Below the pieces are notes generated by a model. It had not been told where the DNA came from. It searched no databases and saw nothing but the letters and a program-made list of their open reading frames with translations. 64,000 nucleotides of DNA from a virus (lineage: Duplodnaviria > Caudoviricetes). The translations under genes were made by a program, and so were the position numbers. This document shows positions 2,713-29,180 of the stretch, in pieces; positions within the stretch are counted from its first letter, which is position 1, and each line of letters opens with the position of its first letter. The DNA lies in the IMG/VR virus record IMGVR_UViG_3300028601_000023, positions 1-64,000 of that record; one strand, written 5' to 3'.

Positions 2713-3521
2713 TATTCATCTCCGGGAATTTTATCTTCCTCTGGAATTGTATCACCAATGGTATATGTACGGTCTTCAATTAATTCAGGATTCATGAACT
2801 CTGGATCAATTCCTTCAGATACATACTTTTCCATTAATGATGGTATAGTATCATTTATATTTACAATGGTCTTATTGATAATCTGTGCTTCTTGATCTGT
2901 TGGAACAATATTAGCATGGACGTCAAAATCCATAGACCATTCTATCATTCTGTTTGAATCAAATCCATCAGCATAAGAATCATTTTTTGTAATACCATTC
3001 AAGACTATTCGTACATCATTGACAATATTCAATAAAACAGATTCTTTCATTTTGATTGATACTTCTGGATTGAATACAGGCAAGATCTGATTGAGAATCT
3101 GTAGAGAATCATCCATACCTTTACACCATGCAGAAAGCGTGAATCCAAACTTATATGCTACAGGAGTTCTAATCTTTCGTGCTTCTGTTGTAGATGTTTT
3201 CAATCCAGACTGAACATGAAATAGAGCAGCGTTGGTGCTTTCTTCAGCTGATCTTGCAAGCGAGTTTAATTCAAATGACAATCTTGGAAGCAATCGACCG
3301 ACTTCGATAGATCCGTCTGGAAGTCTCATAGTCTGTTCGATCCATAAGGCATATTGCTGTTTTGCAGACCACGCCAACGGAACCTTTCTACGAGAAGCAG
3401 CAATATTACCAGTCTTATCATATAGACGTATAGTCAGATCTTGAAATAAAGATCCAAATATGATTGCGATATTTCTGATACTGGACGCATAAGCATCTTT
3501 TGGAATTAGTATATTAGCCAT
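2712..3521 (-). CDS. gp15: Tail sheath stabiliser / tail completion protein (gp15-like)
   Basis: FGSLFQDL, KVPLAW, LPRLSFE, QILPVFNP motifs; synteny 13-14-15-16-17. Confidence 0.9.
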   Translation of the reverse strand: MANILIPKDAYASSIRNIAIIFGSLFQDLTIRLYDKTGNIAASRRKVPLAWSAKQQYALWIEQTMRLPDGSIEVGRLLPRLSFELNSLARSAEESTNAALFHVQSGLKTSTTEARKIRTPVAYKFGFTLSAWCKGMDDSLQILNQILPVFNPEVSIKMKESVLLNIVNDVRIVLNGITKNDSYADGFDSNRMIEWSMDFDVHANIVPTDQEAQIINKTIVNINDTIPSLMEKYVSEGIDPEFMNPELIEDRTYTIGDTIPEEDKIPGDE

Positions 3522-4206
3522 TAGTAAAATCCTTTGTCAAACTGTTTTCCCAGAGGTTAGGTTCTTTTATAACTGATTCATTTGCTTCGTCGATGATATC
3601 AGTATTGTCCATAAACGGCATATCCAAAGTATCATGGTAGTTATTAATGATATCAATATTTTCAACACCTGTATCAAACACTTCTGTTCCCTGATCGTAA
3701 ACTTGACAAGTAAGAGCATAAAGACTGTATGCTCCCAATGCAAAGCTCGGTAGTTTGTCTTCTACATATTTGATTTCTAAAATATTACCTGGAATACTGA
3801 AAGCAATTAGATCCCCAGGAATTGGATATTTTCTACCTTCAACTCCAAGTTTTGCAAACTCTTCTACGATTCGTTCAAACGAAACATGAAGGACAATTGT
3901 ATCAGCCATATTGTATCCAAACTGAGCAATAGAATCATGGCCCTGCATTAGAGAAGTATCAGATGGATACATTTCAATCGGAAACGTATGAGAGAATGTT
4001 GTTCCAATTGTCTCACCAAAGACTTCATCTACTGTATTGTTTGTTCTAACAATATAAGTAGTAGAAACACCAAACATCTGAATATGTTCTTTCTGTAAAG
4101 ACTTCATCACATTCTGTTCATTAGTATTATCATAGTTCTCACCATTGATACTTAGATATGGATTTAAACCAGCTCTCGAATTTAAAAAGTATGGATTGAG
4201 TGCCAT
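3514..4206 (-). CDS. gp14: Neck protein (gp14-like)
   Basis: LNPYF, EQNVM...IQMFG, PxPGDLI, EIKYVE motifs. Confidence 0.9.
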   Translation of the reverse strand: MALNPYFLNSRAGLNPYLSINGENYDNTNEQNVMKSLQKEHIQMFGVSTTYIVRTNNTVDEVFGETIGTTFSHTFPIEMYPSDTSLMQGHDSIAQFGYNMADTIVLHVSFERIVEEFAKLGVEGRKYPIPGDLIAFSIPGNILEIKYVEDKLPSFALGAYSLYALTCQVYDQGTEVFDTGVENIDIINNYHDTLDMPFMDNTDIIDEANESVIKEPNLWENSLTKDFTNG

Positions 4207-4208
4207 GA

Positions 4209-4961
4209 TTAACCCCAGAACATCTGTGGAGGATATTCATTTTCTTTTTTATGTTTCTCTTCTAACCGTTCTTTTTCAGACGTATACTTTGAAAGGATTG
4301 CATCACCATTCAATGTAATTCCACCGACTGATGGAATATTGCCGAACTTAGAAATGTTCTGTCCCCATTGCTGCCCAATTAGAGCTGTACAATATTCCTT
4401 CAAGAACGCGGAGTCCCAGATAGAAGATTCTGTTTCAGGATCAATCATTTTATATCCATGAATTCCAACAACATTGCCAGGTGTAATTGTTTTGTAAGGA
4501 AAGATCTTCCGTTCACGATTCCGGTATGCAAATGGAACTTCAGTTTGTAAAACAGATCTAACAGCCGAAATATACTGCATAGTGATTTCATAATATACAA
4601 GATTAGCGTTACCAGCTCCAAATTGCCAATAGCCGTTCCAGAACTGATATTCGGGATCATCTAGACCGTCTAATGCTGGTGTAGAATTAATTCCTCGAGG
4701 CTTCATCAGTTCAAGAACATCAATAACTTCCAACGGCATGCTTAGATATCCATTAGTAACGTCTGTTTCTGTACAAGTATATAACCACCAAAACTCTTGA
4801 ACCGATTCAGAGTTATTCTCTAAATAAAATTGTAGCGCATCAGTCACTCTATCAGCAATTTGGGTATCATCTACCTCAATGTTGATAACTGGTGCTCCAA
4901 GTTTTCTTAAACAGTATAGAATAAAATCATTATACGTTGAAATTCTATTGTAGTTCGGCAT
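4209..4961 (-). CDS. gp13: Neck protein / head-tail adaptor (gp13-like)
   Basis: LRKLGAPVINIEV, QQWGQN.SKF, GGITLNG motifs. Confidence 0.93.
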   Translation of the reverse strand: MPNYNRISTYNDFILYCLRKLGAPVINIEVDDTQIADRVTDALQFYLENNSESVQEFWWLYTCTETDVTNGYLSMPLEVIDVLELMKPRGINSTPALDGLDDPEYQFWNGYWQFGAGNANLVYYEITMQYISAVRSVLQTEVPFAYRNRERKIFPYKTITPGNVVGIHGYKMIDPETESSIWDSAFLKEYCTALIGQQWGQNISKFGNIPSVGGITLNGDAILSKYTSEKERLEEKHKKENEYPPQMFWG

Positions 4962-4969
4962 TTCTTCTC

Positions 4970-5461
4970 CTATTGCGGCATGGTATTCAAAATCTGTTTT
5001 ATTAATCCGGGTAGCATATCACTCAACTGCGATTTGATAATATACCATGCTATTGTTGAAACAAAAGTAATTACTGTTATGACTATTGGAATGATCTTTG
5101 CATAGTCTAACCAAGACGTCTTTTTTGGTTCAGCGGGTTTACACGTTGGACACATCATAGATCGTATATCACAACTTTTTTGAATCTCTGCTAACTGTTT
5201 CTTTATGCTATCTATGATTTCTAAAATATCATCTATGTCAGAAGTAGAACTGTTTACTTGATGCTGCATTGATATTAGCAGTTCTACGTTTTCTCTAAGC
5301 TTGTCAAGATTCTTTGTTAATATATCAATAATAGCTGTATGCGTGGTTGTGGTAGCAGATAGTTCCTTTATGGATTGTGCCATCAGCGGCAGTTGTTCTT
5401 TGAGTGATTGCAAAGTGCTATTGATAGCAGCAACCTTCTCAGCTATATTATATTCGGTCAC
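4970..5461 (-). CDS. Coiled-coil protein with one C-terminal TM helix; possible holin/lysis accessory
   Basis: Heptad coiled coil, CPTC, hydrophobic IIPIVITVITFVSTIAWYII; next to spanins. Confidence 0.45.
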   Translation of the reverse strand: MTEYNIAEKVAAINSTLQSLKEQLPLMAQSIKELSATTTTHTAIIDILTKNLDKLRENVELLISMQHQVNSSTSDIDDILEIIDSIKKQLAEIQKSCDIRSMMCPTCKPAEPKKTSWLDYAKIIPIVITVITFVSTIAWYIIKSQLSDMLPGLIKQILNTMPQ

Positions 5462-5473
5462 GACAGTAATTCC

Positions 5474-5767
5474 TTAATTTTTATTTTGGAATGGCTGCAA
5501 GCTTTCTTCTAATACTTCAGTGTATTTTTTATAGATCAAAATAGTTCTATAATATGCTTCAGCCACTTCTGCTGGTGTAGCATTCTCAGTCAAATAATTG
5601 ATCGGAAAATCAGGCTTTTCTACTTTATCAATTTCAGGCTTTATCATTATTGGAACTTCTATATAGACTGGGCGGTCTACGTATCTGTCAACATATTTAG
5701 TGCATCCTGAAATAAATAAACATAGAACAAGTATTAGCGCAAATTGTGTGCATTTGATCTTAGCCAT
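5474..5767 (-). CDS. o-spanin (Rz1-like outer-membrane lipoprotein)
   Basis: Signal peptide with lipobox ISG-C, Pro-rich mature part, overlaps the upstream i-spanin in another frame. Confidence 0.8.
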   Translation of the reverse strand: MAKIKCTQFALILVLCLFISGCTKYVDRYVDRPVYIEVPIMIKPEIDKVEKPDFPINYLTENATPAEVAEAYYRTILIYKKYTEVLEESLQPFQNKN

Positions 5768-6165
5768 TTAATTGCATCCTCTGAAGATTTAACTGATTCT
5801 GGTACCAACTTCTTTGTTGTATTTATTAATGCTTTGAGTTCGTTGTTCTTTTCAGCAAGTGAAGAATTCAACTTTTCTATTTCAGATTTGAATTCTTCAG
5901 AGTCTTTATTGAACTCTTGAATCATTTTGTTCTGCTCATCTATTGCGATTCTTAGAGATTGTGCATTGGTCATTTCAACAAAATATTCTTTCTGGAGCTG
6001 TTCATAGCGTTCTTGCTGTACTAACATTTGCTTCTCAAACGAAGATTCTTTATATTTTATAGTTCCAAACAGTCCAAGACACAACACAACAAGAGCAGCG
6101 ATAACAATTCGTTCTTTTGTCATGAATGATAAAATTATAGACCACATATAGTTCTCCTTAAACAC
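5734..6165 (-). CDS. i-spanin (Rz-like inner-membrane protein)
   Basis: N-terminal TM helix then long coiled coil; probable start is ATG at 6147 (MWSII) after GGAG. Confidence 0.8.
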   Translation of the reverse strand: MFKENYMWSIILSFMTKERIVIAALVVLCLGLFGTIKYKESSFEKQMLVQQERYEQLQKEYFVEMTNAQSLRIAIDEQNKMIQEFNKDSEEFKSEIEKLNSSLAEKNNELKALINTTKKLVPESVKSSEDAIKWLRSNAHNLR

Positions 6166-6166
6166 T

Positions 6167-6174
6167 CTATTTAT
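6167..6174 (-). promoter_or_regulatory. Late promoter (GATAAATA) for the leftward spanin-neck-terminase operon
   Basis: TATTTATC on + strand; the same variant precedes gp18, gp22 and gp3. Confidence 0.65.
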
Positions 6175-6224
6175 CCAATATATGATTTATAGTCTTCCGC
6201 AAAGAAAACTCTTGTTGCTTTAGC

Positions 6225-6653
6225 TCAAGAGATGAATTTGCGTTTGTTTTGTGGTAATCCACCTTGAGATTCAATATATTTCGCAACAGTTTCTCTAGAG
6301 CAGTCTCCTACAGAACATACAAAATACGACTTGCTCCAAAACATCTTTTCTTTCCAAAATTGATATTCTAATATTTCTCCGTGCATCCTCCATATATGAA
6401 ACACACTATAGGACTTCAACTGTCTAGCGATGTTCGAAACTGATTCTGTTGGTATATAATCAATCATCATATGAACATGATCCCGATCTACTTCTATATG
6501 AGTAATATCAAACTTATCACTTTTGTCTGAACATTCCAACAACAATTTTTTCATATCTTCACCGAATTTGATGAGTAATTTCTTCCTATATTTCACCACA
6601 AAAATCAAATGAATTGATAAGTGGTGTACTGAATTACTAGATTTCTTCAACAT
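6225..6653 (-). CDS. tnpA: IS200/IS605 Y1 (HUH) transposase
   Basis: HLIFVVKYRK, HUH motif DHVHM, FWSKSYFV, catalytic Tyr in AKYIESQ. Confidence 0.96.
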   Translation of the reverse strand: MLKKSSNSVHHLSIHLIFVVKYRKKLLIKFGEDMKKLLLECSDKSDKFDITHIEVDRDHVHMMIDYIPTESVSNIARQLKSYSVFHIWRMHGEILEYQFWKEKMFWSKSYFVCSVGDCSRETVAKYIESQGGLPQNKRKFIS

Positions 6654-6699
6654 TATATAAATTCCTTATTTGATTTTGTGAGAGTGAAATTTCAAAACA

Positions 6700-6707
6700 T
6701 ATAAATA
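6700..6707 (+). promoter_or_regulatory. T4-type late promoter directly before tnpB (likely leaderless mRNA)
   Basis: TATAAATA-GATAT-ATG, no SD. Confidence 0.65.
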
Positions 6708-6712
6708 GATAT

Positions 6713-7858
6713 ATGATTAGATATATTTCATATAAGTTTAGAATAAAACCTACCAAAACGCAAGAATCCTTGTTTATAGAACATTGTGGTGCGTCCCGTT
6801 TTATTTATAATAAACTCCTTGAACAACAAATTTCCTTATATGAAAATGAGAAGAAATTTATGTTCGGTATGGCATTATCTAATGCGGTAAAACCAATAAA
6901 AGAAAATAATGATTGGTTGAAGAAAGTAAACAGTCAATCACTTCAACAATCTGCACTAAATTTGGGTAAAGCTTTTAGTAATAAATTCAAACATAAAACT
7001 GGTGGTTTTCCTAAATTCAAATCAAGAAAGAGTTCTAAACAAGCTTTCTCTGTACCACAACATTTTAATATCCGTGGCAACAAAGTTAAATTGCCGAAGA
7101 TTGGTTGGATAAAAATAGTCAATCATAGAAAACTATCAGGCAAAGCTAAATCTTTGGTAATTTCCCTCGATGTGGATCAATGGTTCGTTTCTATCTTATG
7201 TGAACAAGATGTACCGGTACCTACCATAGATTACAAATCAGTAGTCGGTATTGATCTTGGTATAAAAACCTTTGCTATCACTAGTGATGGTGAAGTCTTC
7301 GAACTACCAAAACTAGAACAAGAAACAACGAAACTAAAGAAACTTCAAAGATCATTTACTAGAAAACAAAAAGGATCAAATAACAGAAATAAAGCTAGAA
7401 TAAAGGTTGCAAAACAATATAGAAAAATCTCAAGAATAAAAGATGATCTAATAAACAACTATGTTAGCTCGATAGCCAAGAGTTACGATGTTGTTTCAAT
7501 GGAAAATCTAAACATTCAAGGAATGAAGAAAAATCATTGTTTGGCACCATCTATTCAACAGCTTCCATGGTTCTCATTCAAAATGAAACTAAAACATAAA
7601 GTCAAAGAACTAGTTGAAGTTGGTAGGTTCTATCCTTCAAGTAAAACTTGTTCTGCGTGCGGTTTCGTCAAGAAAGATTTGTCTCTTAGTGAGAGAACCT
7701 ACCATTGCGAAAACTGTGGTCTGTCGATTGATAGAGACTTGAACGCAGCCATAAATATCAAAGACGCGGCAACGGCGTTGTTTGCTTGTGGAGGAACACG
7801 GGTTCCGGTGAAGCAAGAATCAGGTCTCATTGGAGACCTCAAGCTAGAAAGTCTTTAG
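6713..7858 (+). CDS. tnpB: RNA-guided endonuclease TnpB, apparently catalytically intact
   Basis: HTH N-terminus, RuvC-I GIDLG, RuvC-II MENL, zinc finger CSAC/CENC, RuvC-III DRDLNAA. Confidence 0.97.
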   Translation: MIRYISYKFRIKPTKTQESLFIEHCGASRFIYNKLLEQQISLYENEKKFMFGMALSNAVKPIKENNDWLKKVNSQSLQQSALNLGKAFSNKFKHKTGGFPKFKSRKSSKQAFSVPQHFNIRGNKVKLPKIGWIKIVNHRKLSGKAKSLVISLDVDQWFVSILCEQDVPVPTIDYKSVVGIDLGIKTFAITSDGEVFELPKLEQETTKLKKLQRSFTRKQKGSNNRNKARIKVAKQYRKISRIKDDLINNYVSSIAKSYDVVSMENLNIQGMKKNHCLAPSIQQLPWFSFKMKLKHKVKELVEVGRFYPSSKTCSACGFVKKDLSLSERTYHCENCGLSIDRDLNAAINIKDAATALFACGGTRVPVKQESGLIGDLKLESL

Positions 7859-7896
7859 ACTTCTAGTTGGGTTGACTCAGGTATAAATATACAAAA
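7740..7896 (+). ncRNA. Predicted TnpB omegaRNA (scaffold to about 7876; guide TCAGGTATAAATATAC...)
   Basis: omegaRNA normally overlaps the tnpB 3' end and right end; hairpins AGGTCTC/GAGACCT and CTAGAA..TTCTAG; 5' limit is a guess. Confidence 0.6.
7882..7889 (+). promoter_or_regulatory. Late promoter TATAAATA for the baseplate operon
   Basis: Exact T4 late consensus 20 nt before the ATG at 7910. Confidence 0.75.
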
Positions 7897-7909
7897 ACCA
7901 GGCGGGATT

Positions 7910-8788
7910 ATGAATACTACTCCAAAATATGCTATACCAATATCTCCAAAGATATCTTCGTTGTTTTCAGACACTACCGCTGTTGCATATACTAAGTTGA
8001 CCGCAATGACTATTCTTGGTGCCGGAGCTTCTGCATCTACTACAATCAATGGCTCGTGGCAGCTTCCATTGCCGACTGCACTTGATTATAACAGTGACTA
8101 TAATTGGTCAGCTGAAGAACTCGGTCATATTGCAAGCAAACTTATGACAGCTCTAAAAACATCTTATGATTCTGCTACATCAGCATATTCTGCTTCTGCT
8201 GCAGAGGGCAAGGGATTAGTCCGCAGGATGATCGATACTAATGCAGCTATGATAGACGGCTTTATGGATGGAGCTCAGGGTGTCGGTGATATGATGCTAA
8301 ATGATATTGCACGAAAGGCTATGTCTGGCATTTCACAACTGTTGACAGGTGGTGGTGCTCTAGCTAAAGAATATTATAAGCGTCAAGGAAAGACTTATAA
8401 TCCTAATGAACAATTGTACTTTGATGGAGTTTCACTTAGAGAATTCTCGCTTCCGTTTGAGATCACTCCTTTATCTGAATCAGAATCATCTAAATTTTCA
8501 TCTATGATTTATGATCTTCGTCAAGCAGCTGCTCCAAGATATGATTCAGACAAATATTATTTCACATATCCAGACTTCTTTACCGTTGGAATATATGTCG
8601 GCGGAACATTGATTGTCGAGCGTGGACCGTGCGCGATTACATCTCTGAATGTTAACATGGCCCCAGAAGGATCGATAATGTGGAGATCCGACAATAGACC
8701 AGTATCATATTCATTAGATCTTACATTCAAAGAAACTACTGTTGCTACGAAAGAATATGAAGCAAAGACCCGGCTTCTTGGTGTTTAG
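7910..8788 (+). CDS. gp48: Baseplate tail-tube cap (gp48-like)
   Basis: NPNEQLYFDGVSLREFSLPFEITP motif; precedes gp53. Confidence 0.75.
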   Translation: MNTTPKYAIPISPKISSLFSDTTAVAYTKLTAMTILGAGASASTTINGSWQLPLPTALDYNSDYNWSAEELGHIASKLMTALKTSYDSATSAYSASAAEGKGLVRRMIDTNAAMIDGFMDGAQGVGDMMLNDIARKAMSGISQLLTGGGALAKEYYKRQGKTYNPNEQLYFDGVSLREFSLPFEITPLSESESSKFSSMIYDLRQAAAPRYDSDKYYFTYPDFFTVGIYVGGTLIVERGPCAITSLNVNMAPEGSIMWRSDNRPVSYSLDLTFKETTVATKEYEAKTRLLGV

Positions 8789-8796
8789 GAGAAATC

Positions 8797-9273
8797 ATGC
8801 TATCACTATTTGACAAAATTGTTTTCGATGGAACTACTATTACAGATATTTCTCAAAAATTTGTAATTACTAATATTGCTACTTACAATACAAGAAACAT
8901 TTTCTTTGATCATATTATTAACGGATGGAAAGCTCCTGAAGAACTTGCATACGACTTCTATGGATCCTGTGATGATGTTTGGTTGGTCCTTGGAATTAAT
9001 AAAGTCTGCAATCCGGTAACTGATTGGTTATTGAAAGACGCAGAAGTACGGAAATTAGCAATCAAGAAATATGGATCTGCTAATTTAGGTAATACACATC
9101 ATTGGGAGAAAGATGGTATTATATATCGTAATGCCATCACCGGTGGAACTGCAATAACAAATCTTGATTATGAAAATGATCGCAATGAAGCAAAAAGAAA
9201 AGTAAAAATTATTTATCCTGAATTGGTTAGTACTATAAAGACCGAGATTAAAAACTATTTCAACAGAGCGTAA
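8797..9273 (+). CDS. gp53: Baseplate wedge subunit (gp53-like)
   Basis: PEELAYDFYG...WLVL..N...NP..DW motif. Confidence 0.85.
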   Translation: MLSLFDKIVFDGTTITDISQKFVITNIATYNTRNIFFDHIINGWKAPEELAYDFYGSCDDVWLVLGINKVCNPVTDWLLKDAEVRKLAIKKYGSANLGNTHHWEKDGIIYRNAITGGTAITNLDYENDRNEAKRKVKIIYPELVSTIKTEIKNYFNRA

Positions 9274-9274
9274 C

Positions 9275-10624
9275 ATGGATTTTATTAGAAATAAATCACA
9301 TTCATTATCAGTACTAAAGATTAAAAGTATTGCTGAAGGGAAAGAAGAATCAGAATTTGATCTTCGGTATATCTTTGACGAACTAAACGTGTTTCACGAC
9401 ATTGATAACATTGTCACGTCAGGATATGTCACGATTAAAGAACAGGGGAATCTTATAGTATCTTGTCCAATTCAAGGAAAAGAAATTATAGAAATTAAAT
9501 TCAAGTCTGATTTTGAATCTGAAGAAGGCGAAGATCCTTGGGTCAAACGAGAATACCATCGAGTCTTCTTTGTATATGCTGTAGACGGGCTTCAAGAGTC
9601 TGGAGATAAACGGTCATACACAATTCGGTTCACTGATGCTCTAGGGATGATAAACAGTGATATGAGGCTGTCTATCAAATATGATGATAAAGCAGAAAAC
9701 ATTATAGAGAAGATTGGGAACGAAATCATCAATAAGAAAGAGCTCTATAATAAGTGGATTAAGAATACATATAACGGAACTCGAGATGTTTTAATGCTCC
9801 AGAAGGATGTAGAATCTGAACACAACATTATCTTTACTGTTCCAAACTGGAAACCTCTGAAGTTAATTAACTATATTACTAAGAAAGCCGTTTCAATCGA
9901 CCAACCTAATACTGAGAAGTTTGCTGATTGTTTATTCTTTCAGAGTGTGACTGGATTCTATAAATTTACATCATACAAACACATGATGACCGAGACTAAT
10001 AAAGACAAGAAGCGGAAGTTTGTTCGATACCCTGCTAATATTACTCAGGCTATTACTGACAAATATGTAGTAGAGAATTTCTCGTTTACTGATTTGTTTA
10101 ATAGCCAGATTCAGAAAGGTGGGATGTTTGGACATACTACTTTCACTGTAGACCTTGGGAATAAAGAATATATCAGTTCTCCAGTTCCTTATGAGGATGT
10201 TTTTGAAGCAATCAAATCTTATTACGGATCTAATCAGATTCTAAAAGAATACGCATCAGTTGAAATGTCTCCAGATAGTTCTCATGGCATTCATGTTTTC
10301 AATATCAATACAGATAATGCAAATGATTCTAACAGATTAGACTTTGTATATCCTGCAGTCGTAAAGGGTATTCCAATGGAAGCTCACATGAGATCTTTGA
10401 AGATATTTGTTGAAATGAATGGAGCTTCCGACTTGGATATTGGAACTGCTGTAGATCTAGACTTTAAACCTCATCCAAATGCTGAAAAACATGGTGGAGA
10501 TATTTCACAGTTTATCAATGGAACATGGGTAATCGGAAAGATCCGGCATACTATTACTCCAACAGCATTTAAGACGTTTGTTGAATGCTTTACTCCGTGC
10601 ATAAATAAACAGGGGAATTCATAA
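9275..10624 (+). CDS. Baseplate hub protein (gp27/VgrG-N-like)
   Basis: Between gp53 and gp5; PIQGKE, PNWKP, GTWVIGKIRH motifs. Confidence 0.6.
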   Translation: MDFIRNKSHSLSVLKIKSIAEGKEESEFDLRYIFDELNVFHDIDNIVTSGYVTIKEQGNLIVSCPIQGKEIIEIKFKSDFESEEGEDPWVKREYHRVFFVYAVDGLQESGDKRSYTIRFTDALGMINSDMRLSIKYDDKAENIIEKIGNEIINKKELYNKWIKNTYNGTRDVLMLQKDVESEHNIIFTVPNWKPLKLINYITKKAVSIDQPNTEKFADCLFFQSVTGFYKFTSYKHMMTETNKDKKRKFVRYPANITQAITDKYVVENFSFTDLFNSQIQKGGMFGHTTFTVDLGNKEYISSPVPYEDVFEAIKSYYGSNQILKEYASVEMSPDSSHGIHVFNINTDNANDSNRLDFVYPAVVKGIPMEAHMRSLKIFVEMNGASDLDIGTAVDLDFKPHPNAEKHGGDISQFINGTWVIGKIRHTITPTAFKTFVECFTPCINKQGNS

Positions 10625-28164: not shown

Positions 28165-28186
28165 GGGACCTTACGGTCCCTTTTTT
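28165..28186 (+). terminator. Intrinsic terminator after gp46
   Basis: GGGACC-TTAC-GGTCCC-TTTTTT. Confidence 0.88.
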
Positions 28187-28364
28187 AATTTTCTGCCAAT
28201 TTTGTTGGTAAATATACAGCAATTTTCGTCAATTTCGGGAATAGTCAATTAATTCAACAGGTTAGATGAAATATAGACACACTCTAAGTGGTTGATTTAA
28301 TTCAACAAAAAAAGATACCGTTATTTTCCACAACATTTTTCGTAAATCACAAAAGTGAACCGTT

Positions 28365-28578
28365 TAAAGTAGACAGCTGAAGGATTTATACTAACTTATA
28401 CTGAAATTTCAATATAACTCGGTATAACTTTCCACCAAGGTTTCTACTGTAAGTTTCAACTAACAAGAGCGAAGCTAAATCTTTCCACTGAGGGAACCGA
28501 AGTGGATGTCCCGAAGGGACAAACTCTGATGAGATTTTATTAGATCACCAGAGTGAATACCTAAAGTAGACAGCTGAA
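28365..28578 (+). repeat. 17-bp exact direct repeat TAAAGTAGACAGCTGAA (28365-28381, 28562-28578)
   Basis: Read directly; both copies preceded by AGTGAA. Confidence 0.9.
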
Positions 28579-28793
28579 AGGTTTAGCTAAGTTTAGCAGT
28601 CTTAGAATTATTTAGACGAGATAGAAAGTATATCTATCAGTCCATCTATCAATTAGAATATCCTTAAGGCGATATTTAGATTTATTCTAATTGATCATTC
28701 TCCGGTTCCCTCCGAATGATACCGTCACTAGTTCCTAGTGACAATGGTTTTAATGGTTCCTTTAAAATTCTATTCTAAATACCTCTATTATTC

Positions 28794-29180
28794 ATGTTTT
28801 ATAGCTCCAAACTATATTTGTTTGGGACTAAGTATTTAAAATTATTGAAAATGACATTTTGATGGTTTATCTAGAGATATATCATGAAATTCTATCATCA
28901 GTCCAAAAAACTTTGGAGAGTGTATGATACTCCGTTAAATGACATTCTATCCATCTAAGTAATCAACTAAATTGACTAATTTCTTCTATTGCCTCTAATT
29001 GTTCCCTAGCGGGAAATGGCCTCGGTTCCCTTCGGCCAAAGTTTTAATGGTTTCTATAAATATTTCTATGGAATTCTATTGATCATTCCTATAAAATTTT
29101 ATATTCTGATTCTATCAATTCCATATTATATCTATGTTTTATAGCTCCAAACTATATTTGTTTGGGACTAAGTATTTAAA
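28794..29180 (+). repeat. 47-bp exact direct repeat (28794-28840, 29134-29180) within a larger imperfect repeat
   Basis: ATGTTTTATAGCTCCAAACTATATTTGTTTGGGACTAAGTATTTAAA twice, with internal CCAAAC/GTTTGG hairpin. Confidence 0.95.

What the first reader, a model, noticed from the sequence alone, without database searches (positions are those of the whole stretch)
6167..7896. IS inserted between divergent late promoters; predicted guide covers a late promoter
Seen: a leftward late box (6167-6174) lies just left of the candidate TAM TTTAT, and a rightward TATAAATA (7882) lies 5 nt after the inferred right end (...GTTGAC, 7876). The reconstructed empty site is ...ATGATTTAT|TCAGGTATAAATATAC..., so the guide includes the baseplate-operon promoter. 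Inference: the site disrupts no gene, and escape mutations in the target would tend to damage an essential promoter, much as homing endonucleases target conserved sites. Element ends are inferred from family architecture.
Basis: partly seen in the sequence, partly recalled or inferred. Interest (0 to 1): 0.7.

Follow-up and report, generated by a model that had tools for sequence, protein, structure and literature searches.

The report
IS605 element targeting phage late promoters
Related phages show the empty site, the same element at three other late-promoter sites and a genome inversion it caused, so it is an active member of a well-known family that appears to spread like a homing element.

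Summary
Confirmed. Window 6191-7876 is a 1686 bp IS200/IS605-type element with tnpA on the minus strand and tnpB on the plus strand. It lies directly 3' of TTTAT (6186-6190) and ends in GTTGAC (7876). The only difference is one extra TTTA unit in the left flank. The 16 nt after the right end (7877-7892), which is the predicted guide, contain the baseplate late box (7882-7889).

New findings:
- The same IS (0-5 differences in 1686 bp) occurs at four sites in related phages. Every site is TATTTAT|N, the complement of the late-promoter core, cut between box positions 1 and 2.
- The phage backbones differ by 5-8% right up to the IS ends, so the element spread recently into one site in diverged genomes. 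That is a homing-like pattern.
- Two inverted copies recombined in one lineage, inverting a genome segment and leaving a roughly 60 nt right-end remnant.
- The right-end RNA scaffold shows strong covariation.

Cleavage, the omegaRNA 3' end and promoter activity were not measured. The family is known. The targeting of late promoters and the natural evidence for homing among lytic phages are the interesting parts.

The parts
5734..6147 (-). Left-flank gene (137 aa, no known family), first gene of the leftward neck-module operon. It is intact, with ATG at 6147 and an RBS at about 6154-6159.
   Evidence: the same 137 aa gene is called in L002 and L003
6168..6175 (-). Proximal leftward late-type box GATAAATA (7/8), 20 nt before the ATG.
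   Evidence: GATAAATA lies within 60 nt upstream of a gene in 5 of 20 occurrences against a background of 0.038
6184..6191 (-). Junction box. The complement of the TAM plus the first IS base reads TATAAATC here. It reads TATAAATA in L002 and the L025-type copies, and AATAAATA in the empty site L003.
6186..6190 (+). TAM / TnpA target TTTAT, directly 5' of the left end
   Evidence: TTTAT precedes LE in 6 of 6 independent elements. Meers et al. validated TTTAT as the TAM of ISGst2 TnpB2.
6191..7876 (+). Whole IS200/IS605-type element, 1686 bp, with no target duplication and no terminal inverted repeats
6209..6231 (+). LE subterminal imperfect hairpin (bulged stem, TTTA loop), starting 18 nt inside the left end
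   Evidence: relatives L012, L014, L019 and L021 have the same architecture
6225..6653 (-). tnpA, Y1 HUH transposase (142 aa), with the HUH motif and catalytic Tyr conserved
6700..6707 (+). Perfect TATAAATA box 5 nt before the tnpB ATG. A possible late promoter that would give a leaderless tnpB mRNA.
   Evidence: L014 has the same spacing with CATAAATA. Not tested.
6713..7858 (+). tnpB (381 aa), with the RuvC D/E/D residues and the zinc-finger cysteines conserved against ISDra2 TnpB
7764..7876 (+). Predicted omegaRNA scaffold (five to six helices) overlapping the 3' end of tnpB
   Evidence: 31 pairs, 17 with compensatory changes, 93% paired against 32-48% in slid controls
7844..7866 (+). RE subterminal imperfect hairpin (bulge, TTTA loop), followed by a 10 nt tail ending in GTTGAC
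7877..7892 (+). Predicted 16 nt guide, which equals the target in the empty site. It is identical in every backbone examined.
   Evidence: The guide length is taken from ISDra2 and ISGst (established knowledge). No RNA ends were measured.
7882..7889 (+). Rightward late box TATAAATA of the baseplate operon, at guide positions 6-13
   Evidence: a perfect box is also present in the syntenic gap of the distant relative L004
7910..8788 (+). Baseplate tail-tube-cap (gp48-like) gene, first gene of the rightward baseplate operon, intact

Best explanation
Window 6191-7876 is an intact, recently active IS605-type insertion sequence in a T4-like phage. It has divergent tnpA and tnpB genes.

Shown:
- The ends are exact and the insertion is seamless, 3' of TTTAT.
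- Both proteins keep their catalytic residues.
- The right end encodes a conserved structured RNA.
- In related phages the same IS sits at four different sites, always TATTTAT|N. That is the complement of the late-promoter core ATAAATA, cut between box positions 1 and 2. The first IS base then restores the consensus T.
- Empty alleles exist for sites 1 to 4.
- The IS is 99.7-100% identical in phage backbones that are only 92-95% identical.

Inferred:
- TnpA inserts at TTTAT in single-stranded phage DNA.
- Insertions survive at the upstream edge of late promoters because T4-type late promoters need only the -10-like box. Neither the gene nor the promoter is damaged.
- tnpB transcripts are processed into an omegaRNA whose 16 nt guide is the DNA just past the right end (7877-7892), which here covers the baseplate late box.
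- During co-infection, TnpB-omegaRNA cuts IS-free genomes at TTTAT plus this target. Recombinational repair then copies the IS in (homing).
- Both the TAM and the target lie in promoter sequence, so escape mutations are costly.
For: - **Ends and empty site:**, and the run X2 joint.
- **Family features:** (Y1_Tnp; OrfB_IS605 plus TNB; D/E/D, zinc finger, HUH and Tyr).
- **Terminal hairpins and TAM:** shared by six independent elements.
- **omegaRNA scaffold covariation:**. The fold of 7727-7892 has z = -3.65.
- **Site 2:** L007, with the empty allele in the window's own genome at 86167|86168.
- **Site 3:** run X3's right flank matches the genome 30/30 at 77880.
- **Site 4:** the RE junction in L024, L025 and L028 maps to 121976.
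- **Site statistics:** all four sites are TATTTAT|N. Only 56 of 731 TTTAT sites have that context (p about 3e-5), or 18 of 106 intergenic ones (p about 8e-4).
- **Late-box signal:** strand bias, intergenic enrichment and a degenerate position 1.
- **IS against backbone identity:**
- **Target conservation:** the target and about 60 nt after it are invariant in all backbones.
- **Both alleles in one sample:** L003 is empty and L032 is occupied, both from the same JGI sample.
- **Literature:** TTTAT is a validated TnpB TAM, and homing into co-infecting phages has been predicted but not observed.
Against: - There are no RNA data. The runs labelled RNA-Seq are probably DNA and are held only as contigs, so the omegaRNA and its 3' end are predictions.
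- No cleavage or promoter assay was done.
- Everything rests on metagenomic contigs, although several independent assemblies agree.
- Ordinary homologous recombination between co-infecting phages could also move the IS between backbones without TnpB.
- Flank differences begin within about 30-45 nt of the left end, so no long co-conversion tract is visible.
- The TATTTAT context could be an intrinsic 7 nt specificity rather than the result of selection. Relatives L012, L019 and L021 do lack the TA.
- L002's copy has a divergent last third (82 of 576 differences), which shows extra recombination that the simple model does not explain.
- Presence of the late sigma factor gp55 was not verified here.
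Confidence: 0.8

Rival explanations
1. A passive passenger. The IS transposes by TnpA alone and survives only in the few harmless intergenic TTTAT sites. Its presence at one site in diverged backbones comes from ordinary homologous recombination among co-infecting T4-like phages. TnpB only restores the copy after excision from the same genome (restorative homing) or does nothing.
For: T4-like backbones here are visibly mosaic: identity ranges from 82 to 99% along 13 kb. No long co-conversion tracts flank the IS. Recombination inside the IS is evident in L002 and in the inversion. Intergenic sites are rare, with the genome 91% coding.
Against: The IS is 20-40 times less diverged than the DNA immediately outside both ends, in three backbones. 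Neutral recombination would usually carry flanking markers along. Restricting the test to intergenic TTTAT sites still gives p about 8e-4 for four of four in TATTTAT. TnpB keeps all its catalytic residues and the omegaRNA scaffold is under structural selection.
Confidence: 0.3
2. A domesticated weapon. The phage keeps TnpB-omegaRNA mainly to cut the essential baseplate promoter region of IS-free competitor phages, giving marker exclusion or competitor killing as described for T4 Seg/Mob endonucleases. The benefit goes to the phage rather than to the IS.
For: The target is invariant among competitors. There is a possible late-promoter drive of tnpB. The concept is described for free-standing homing endonucleases in the review.
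Against: tnpA is intact and the element is still transposing to new sites with different guides, which is typical of a selfish IS. IS-free relatives coexist in the same sample.
Confidence: 0.12
3. An ancient vertical insertion. The IS entered site 1 once, before the backbones diverged, and has simply been conserved since.
For: The junction is the same in the window, L002 and the L025-type genomes. L002's last third is about as diverged as the backbone, or more so.
Against: There are 0-7 differences in the first 1110 bp, including synonymous and non-coding positions, against about 8% in the flanks. Copies at sites 2 and 3 are equally identical. Empty alleles sit in closely related backbones.
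Confidence: 0.05

Closest known systems
ISGst2 of Geobacillus stearothermophilus (IS605 group; TnpB2)
   Same: TnpA plus TnpB, the TAM and target TTTAT, a guide formed by the DNA flanking the right end, and TnpB shown to cut the vacant donor site and promote retention by recombination (Meers et al.).
   Different: ISGst2 is chromosomal and bacterial. The element here lives in a lytic T4-like phage, its sites are embedded in late-promoter boxes, and its gene order is divergent. Sequence relatedness to ISGst2 was not measured here.
ISDra2 (Deinococcus radiodurans) TnpA and TnpB, solved structures 2XM3 and 8EXA/8H1J
   Same: Best or near-best solved homologues of both proteins: TnpB at E = 4e-57 over residues 1-358, TnpA at E = 2e-14. 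The catalytic residues align. The scaffold-plus-16-nt-guide logic of the omegaRNA is the same.
   Different: The ISDra2 TAM is TTGAT, the hosts differ, and here tnpA and tnpB are divergent.
IS605 / IS606 / IS608 of Helicobacter pylori
   Same: Seamless insertion 3' of a short A/T-rich motif, and subterminal imperfect hairpins about 19 nt from LE and about 10 nt from RE. Here the distances are 18 and 10 nt. The divergent orfA/orfB order matches IS605. These comparisons come from my own knowledge of the family, not from a test here.
   Different: No sequence comparison was run, and those elements are bacterial and chromosomal.
ISCaje1-4 in T4-like Campylobacter phages CP220 and CPt10
   Same: IS200/IS605 elements in T4-like virulent phages, sitting at different locations in 96% identical genomes (Timms et al. 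2010). There is weak DNA similarity within tnpB.
   Different: Most are TnpB-only. No empty-site, TAM, promoter or homing analysis was reported, and the similarity to this IS is only about 67% over 200 nt.
Free-standing homing endonucleases of T4 (Seg, Mob) and intron-encoded I-TevI
   Same: Works alike. A nuclease gene placed between conserved phage genes would cut the allele that lacks it in a co-infecting relative and be copied in by recombination (review).
   Different: Target recognition would be RNA-guided (TnpB-omegaRNA plus TAM), and the element also has its own transposase. It is not a member of any homing-endonuclease protein family.

Membership tests
IS200/IS605 insertion sequences (IS605 group) | Y1 HUH transposase TnpA | tested here: met
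   PF01797 at E = 3e-29. The HUH motif and catalytic Tyr align to ISDra2 TnpA.
IS200/IS605 insertion sequences (IS605 group) | TnpB with a RuvC D/E/D triad and a zinc finger | tested here: met
   PF12323, PF01385 and PF07282 all match. The alignment to ISDra2 TnpB keeps the D, E and D motifs and the two CxxC pairs.
IS200/IS605 insertion sequences (IS605 group) | No terminal inverted repeats and no target-site duplication; seamless insertion | tested here: met
   The empty site equals left flank plus right flank with no extra or missing base at sites 1 and 2.
IS200/IS605 insertion sequences (IS605 group) | Insertion 3' of a fixed short motif (TAM) at the left end | tested here: met
   TTTAT precedes LE in 6 of 6 independent elements, and at the empty alleles of sites 3 and 4 in the genome.
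IS200/IS605 insertion sequences (IS605 group) | Subterminal imperfect hairpins at both ends | tested here: met
   LE hairpin at 6209-6231 and RE hairpin at 7844-7866, both bulged with a TTTA loop. They are conserved in architecture with compensatory changes in relatives.
TnpB-omegaRNA (OMEGA) RNA-guided nucleases | Structured RNA scaffold overlapping the tnpB 3' end and the right end | tested here: met
   31 pairs, 17 of them compensatory, covariation score 0.60 against at most 0.16 in slid controls, 0 of 500 shuffles as high.
TnpB-omegaRNA (OMEGA) RNA-guided nucleases | The omegaRNA extends about 16 nt beyond the right end to form the guide | not testable with these tools
   Only contigs were available. 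The runs labelled RNA-Seq are probably DNA.
TnpB-omegaRNA (OMEGA) RNA-guided nucleases | TAM-dependent, guide-dependent DNA cleavage | not testable with these tools
   Needs a bench assay.
T4-type late promoter | TATAAATA-like box 10-60 nt upstream of late genes, strand-matched and enriched in intergenic DNA | tested here: met
   21 of 23 boxes are on the main coding strand, 13 of 23 are intergenic, and 10 of 23 lie within 60 nt upstream of a start against a background of 0.038. Boxes occur on both strands of the syntenic gap in L004.
T4-type late promoter | The phage encodes the late sigma gp55 and co-activator gp33; transcripts start about 6 nt after the box | not tested
   An earlier unchecked note mentions gp33. 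I did not search for gp55, and no RNA ends are available.

The most novel reading that the evidence does not exclude
This is a phage-adapted IS605 lineage whose TAM is the complement of the T4-type late-promoter core. It integrates at the upstream edge of late promoters without harming them, and it expresses tnpB from its own late box as a leaderless mRNA. It uses TnpB-omegaRNA to home between co-infecting lytic phages. If so, it would be the first natural case of RNA-guided 'non-restorative' transposon homing in viruses. It has also already reshaped genome architecture through an IS-mediated inversion.
Probability: 0.4. Interest if true: 0.8.

Novelty: new member of a known kind. Interest (0 to 1): 0.62.

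Why it matters
TnpB is known to bias transposon inheritance in bacteria. Homing into co-infecting phage genomes has been proposed only in theory (review PMC13565253). This phage population offers a ready natural test system:
- Occupied and empty alleles occur in the same sample.
- The same IS sits at four defined sites with four predicted guides.
- The TAM is locked inside an essential promoter core.
- The backbones carry enough markers to read co-conversion tracts.

It also shows that an IS can rearrange a T4-like genome by inversion without loss of function, because late promoters are self-contained. It further suggests that promoter-edge sites act as safe harbours in densely coded viral genomes.

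Tried and rejected
- **Phage collection:** megablast of 5000-9300 found nothing, and distant blastn gave only about 200 nt tnpB matches to Lak and Campylobacter phages.
- **Single-protein locus searches in viral contigs:** none found for TnpB or for the baseplate gene.
- **Exact-pattern scans** for the RE, the empty site, the LE hairpin and the right flank in viral, metagenome and genome contigs: all empty.
- **Rfam:** only sub-threshold hits (RAGATH-27 at 26.8 bits against a cut-off of 76).
- **Cellular genomes:** the best TnpB relatives are only 34-38% identical, so there is no host clue.
- **An alternative left boundary I considered:** TAM at 6170-6174 with LE starting at 6175. The empty site rejected it.
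- **My first reading of run X8's contig graph:** a full IS at site 1 plus a solo RE at site 4. This was wrong. Long contigs show the full IS joined to the site-4 flank and the RE remnant joined to the baseplate flank.
- **RNA evidence:** runs X3-X6 are labelled RNA-Seq but look like DNA and are contigs only. Nothing can be said about the ends, strand or level of any RNA.
- **A fuzzy whole-genome search for partial IS ends** timed out.

Full report
**What is there.** The window is the first 64 kb of a 141 kb viral record. It carries T4-type neck, baseplate and sheath genes: gp13, gp14, gp15, gp53, gp5 and gp18 homologues. Between the leftward neck module and the rightward baseplate module lie two ORFs. 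One, at 6225-6653 on the minus strand, is a Y1 HUH transposase (PF01797, E = 3e-29). The other, at 6713-7858 on the plus strand, is a TnpB (PF12323, PF01385 and PF07282; phrog_506 at E = 5e-114). TnpB aligns to ISDra2 TnpB over residues 1-358 with the RuvC D, E and D motifs and both CxxC pairs intact. TnpA aligns to ISDra2 TnpA with the HUH motif and catalytic Tyr intact.

An identical baseplate protein is encoded on a 4 kb JGI contig (L003). There, only 80 bp separate it from the left-flank gene. L003 reads as left flank ending in TTTAT followed directly by the right flank that starts at window 7877. A second phage (L002, TnpB 93% identical) has the IS at the same place, with the same 1686 bp length. 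No base is shared between the IS termini and the flanks, so the boundaries 6191 and 7876 are unambiguous and there is no target duplication. In run X2, a 28 kb contig joins 6190 to 7881 with seven letters between, which reproduces L003's junction. L002, L003 and several other contigs have two TTTA units before the junction, and the window has one.

**Family anatomy.** The left end has 18 nt and then a bulged hairpin with a TTTA loop (6209-6231). The right end has a similar hairpin (7844-7866), followed by 10 nt ending in GTTGAC. Elements whose TnpB is 53-62% identical (L012, L014, L019, L021) share this layout, and TTTAT precedes the left end in six of six independent elements. TTTAT is an experimentally validated TAM for ISGst2 TnpB2. 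Seven right-end regions give a consensus structure of 31 pairs, 17 of them with compensatory changes. In that structure 93% of cells are paired against 32-48% when partners are slid, the covariation score is 0.60 against at most 0.16, and none of 500 shuffles reaches it. This is the expected omegaRNA scaffold (7764-7876 at least). The guide would be 7877-7892, with the baseplate late box at guide positions 6-13. The RNA itself was not observed.

**Late promoters.** The genome has 23 perfect TATAAATA boxes. Of these, 21 are on the strand that carries 178 of about 200 genes, and 13 are intergenic although 91% of the genome is coding. Position 1 is degenerate. AATAAATA, TATAAATA and GATAAATA lie within 60 nt upstream of a same-strand start in 50%, 43% and 25% of their occurrences, against a background of 3.8%. 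Other one-mismatch variants are at or below 17%. The syntenic gap in a distant relative (L004) has perfect boxes on both strands.

**The new rule: the TAM sits inside the box.** The complement of the core ATAAATA is TATTTAT, which ends in the TAM.
- **Site 1:** the empty allele reads A|ATAAATA on the minus strand. After insertion the first IS base makes it T|ATAAATA in L002 and the L025-type genomes. In the window the missing TTTA unit degrades it to TATAAATC.
- **Site 2:** contig L007 carries the same IS (5 differences in 1686 bp) at a different site. The window's own genome has that site empty at 86167|86168, inside a perfect box 27 nt upstream of a gene.
- **Site 3:** in run X3 the right end continues into a flank that matches the genome 30/30 at 77880, again T|ATAAATA, 27 nt upstream of a gene.
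- **Site 4:** several long contigs join the right end to DNA homologous to the genome at 121976, again inside a perfect box.

Only 56 of 731 TTTAT sites in the IS-free genome have the TATTTAT context, so four of four gives p of about 3e-5. Restricting to intergenic sites (18 of 106) gives about 8e-4. Relatives L012, L019 and L021 lack the TA, so I read the bias as survival at harmless promoter-edge positions rather than enzyme specificity. That is an inference.

**Evidence for recent horizontal spread.** Window-type copies at sites 1, 2 and the L025-type locus differ by 0-5 bases in 1686 bp. The neck-module DNA directly outside the left end is only 92-95% identical among the same contigs. Along 13 kb of window against L002, the only long stretch near 100% identity is 6201-7200, inside the IS. 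So the IS entered the same junction in at least three diverged backbones after they diverged. The TAM, the 16 nt target and the following ~60 nt are identical in every backbone. Empty (L003) and occupied (L032) alleles come from the same JGI sample. This is what TnpB-driven homing during co-infection would produce, but plain homologous recombination cannot be excluded. L002's copy has 82 differences confined to its last 576 bp, including compensatory changes in two omegaRNA stems, so recombination with a second IS variant has also occurred.

**An IS-mediated inversion.** On a 121 kb and a 61 kb contig, and on several shorter ones, the full IS keeps the site-1 left flank but its right end abuts the site-4 flank. 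A right-end remnant corresponding to IS 7816-7876, whose first 5 nt (AGAAT) are shared with the phage DNA it abuts, links the other side of site 4 (the 613 aa gene module) to the baseplate promoter. This is the product of recombination between an IS at site 1 and an inverted IS at site 4, followed by a deletion that removed most of one copy. The two junctions lie 28 kb apart on the 121 kb contig. The window's arrangement, which L003 and L004 share, is the ancestral one.

**Comparison and verdict.** Every testable defining feature of an IS605-group element with a TnpB-omegaRNA module is met. IS200/IS605 elements at variable places in T4-like Campylobacter phages are on record. The element is therefore a new member of a known kind. 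Three things are not on record in the papers I could search: the embedding of the TAM in late-promoter boxes, the natural population signature of homing among lytic phages, which a 2026 review treats as theoretical, and the inversion. No close relative was found in reference cellular genomes.

Noticed in passing
L025:1378-3063 and L035:2507-2567 (same 120.8 kb contig); G000 positions 7876/121976 and 7816/122008: There is a large inversion relative to the window's genome, with breakpoints at two inverted IS copies. One copy was later reduced to a right-end remnant of about 60 nt by a deletion at an AGAAT microhomology. The same arrangement is seen in at least five independent assemblies.
   Followed up: yes
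window 7316-7876 versus L002:6604-7164: L002's IS is a mosaic. The first 1110 bp are nearly identical to the window's copy (7 differences), but the last 576 bp have 82 differences, including compensatory changes in two predicted omegaRNA stems. The source of this second allele was not found.
   Followed up: partly
window 6700-6715; L014:3488-3503; L023:2484-2503; L021 about 38 nt before the tnpB start: A late-type box lies exactly 5 nt before the tnpB ATG in the window-type IS and in the 60%-identical L014 element, within a shared motif ATAAATAGAT(A/G)TATG. This would place a T4-type late transcription start on the ATG and give a leaderless mRNA. There is no Shine-Dalgarno sequence. Two more relatives have perfect boxes upstream of tnpB.
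   Followed up: partly
window 6184-6190 and homologous positions in L002, L003, L024-L032: The number of TTTA units next to the left end varies. The window has one, most contigs have two, and the run X3 contig at site 3 may have three. The window's loss of one unit spoils the junction box but keeps the TAM.
   Followed up: partly
G000 28182-28846, 84474-84858, 121472-121972: A dispersed non-coding repeat (74-82% identity) lies upstream of several late boxes, including sites 2 and 4.
   Followed up: no
L023:1-976 and L023:2501-3688: Two TnpB-only genes sit 1.5 kb apart on one 7 kb contig. Their right ends finish in GTAGTTCA rather than GTTGAC, and there is no tnpA.
   Followed up: no
L017:446-1237 and 3501-4760: A TnpB-only relative (57% identical) on a 146 kb viral contig lies near a gene with a faint NUMOD3 (homing-endonuclease DNA-binding) hit and glycosyltransferases.
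   Followed up: no
L007:4143-4625 (minus strand): At site 2 the called dCMP-deaminase ORF runs 22 nt into the right end of the IS. The insertion may therefore alter the last few codons of that gene, or the ORF call may simply extend past the original stop.
   Followed up: no
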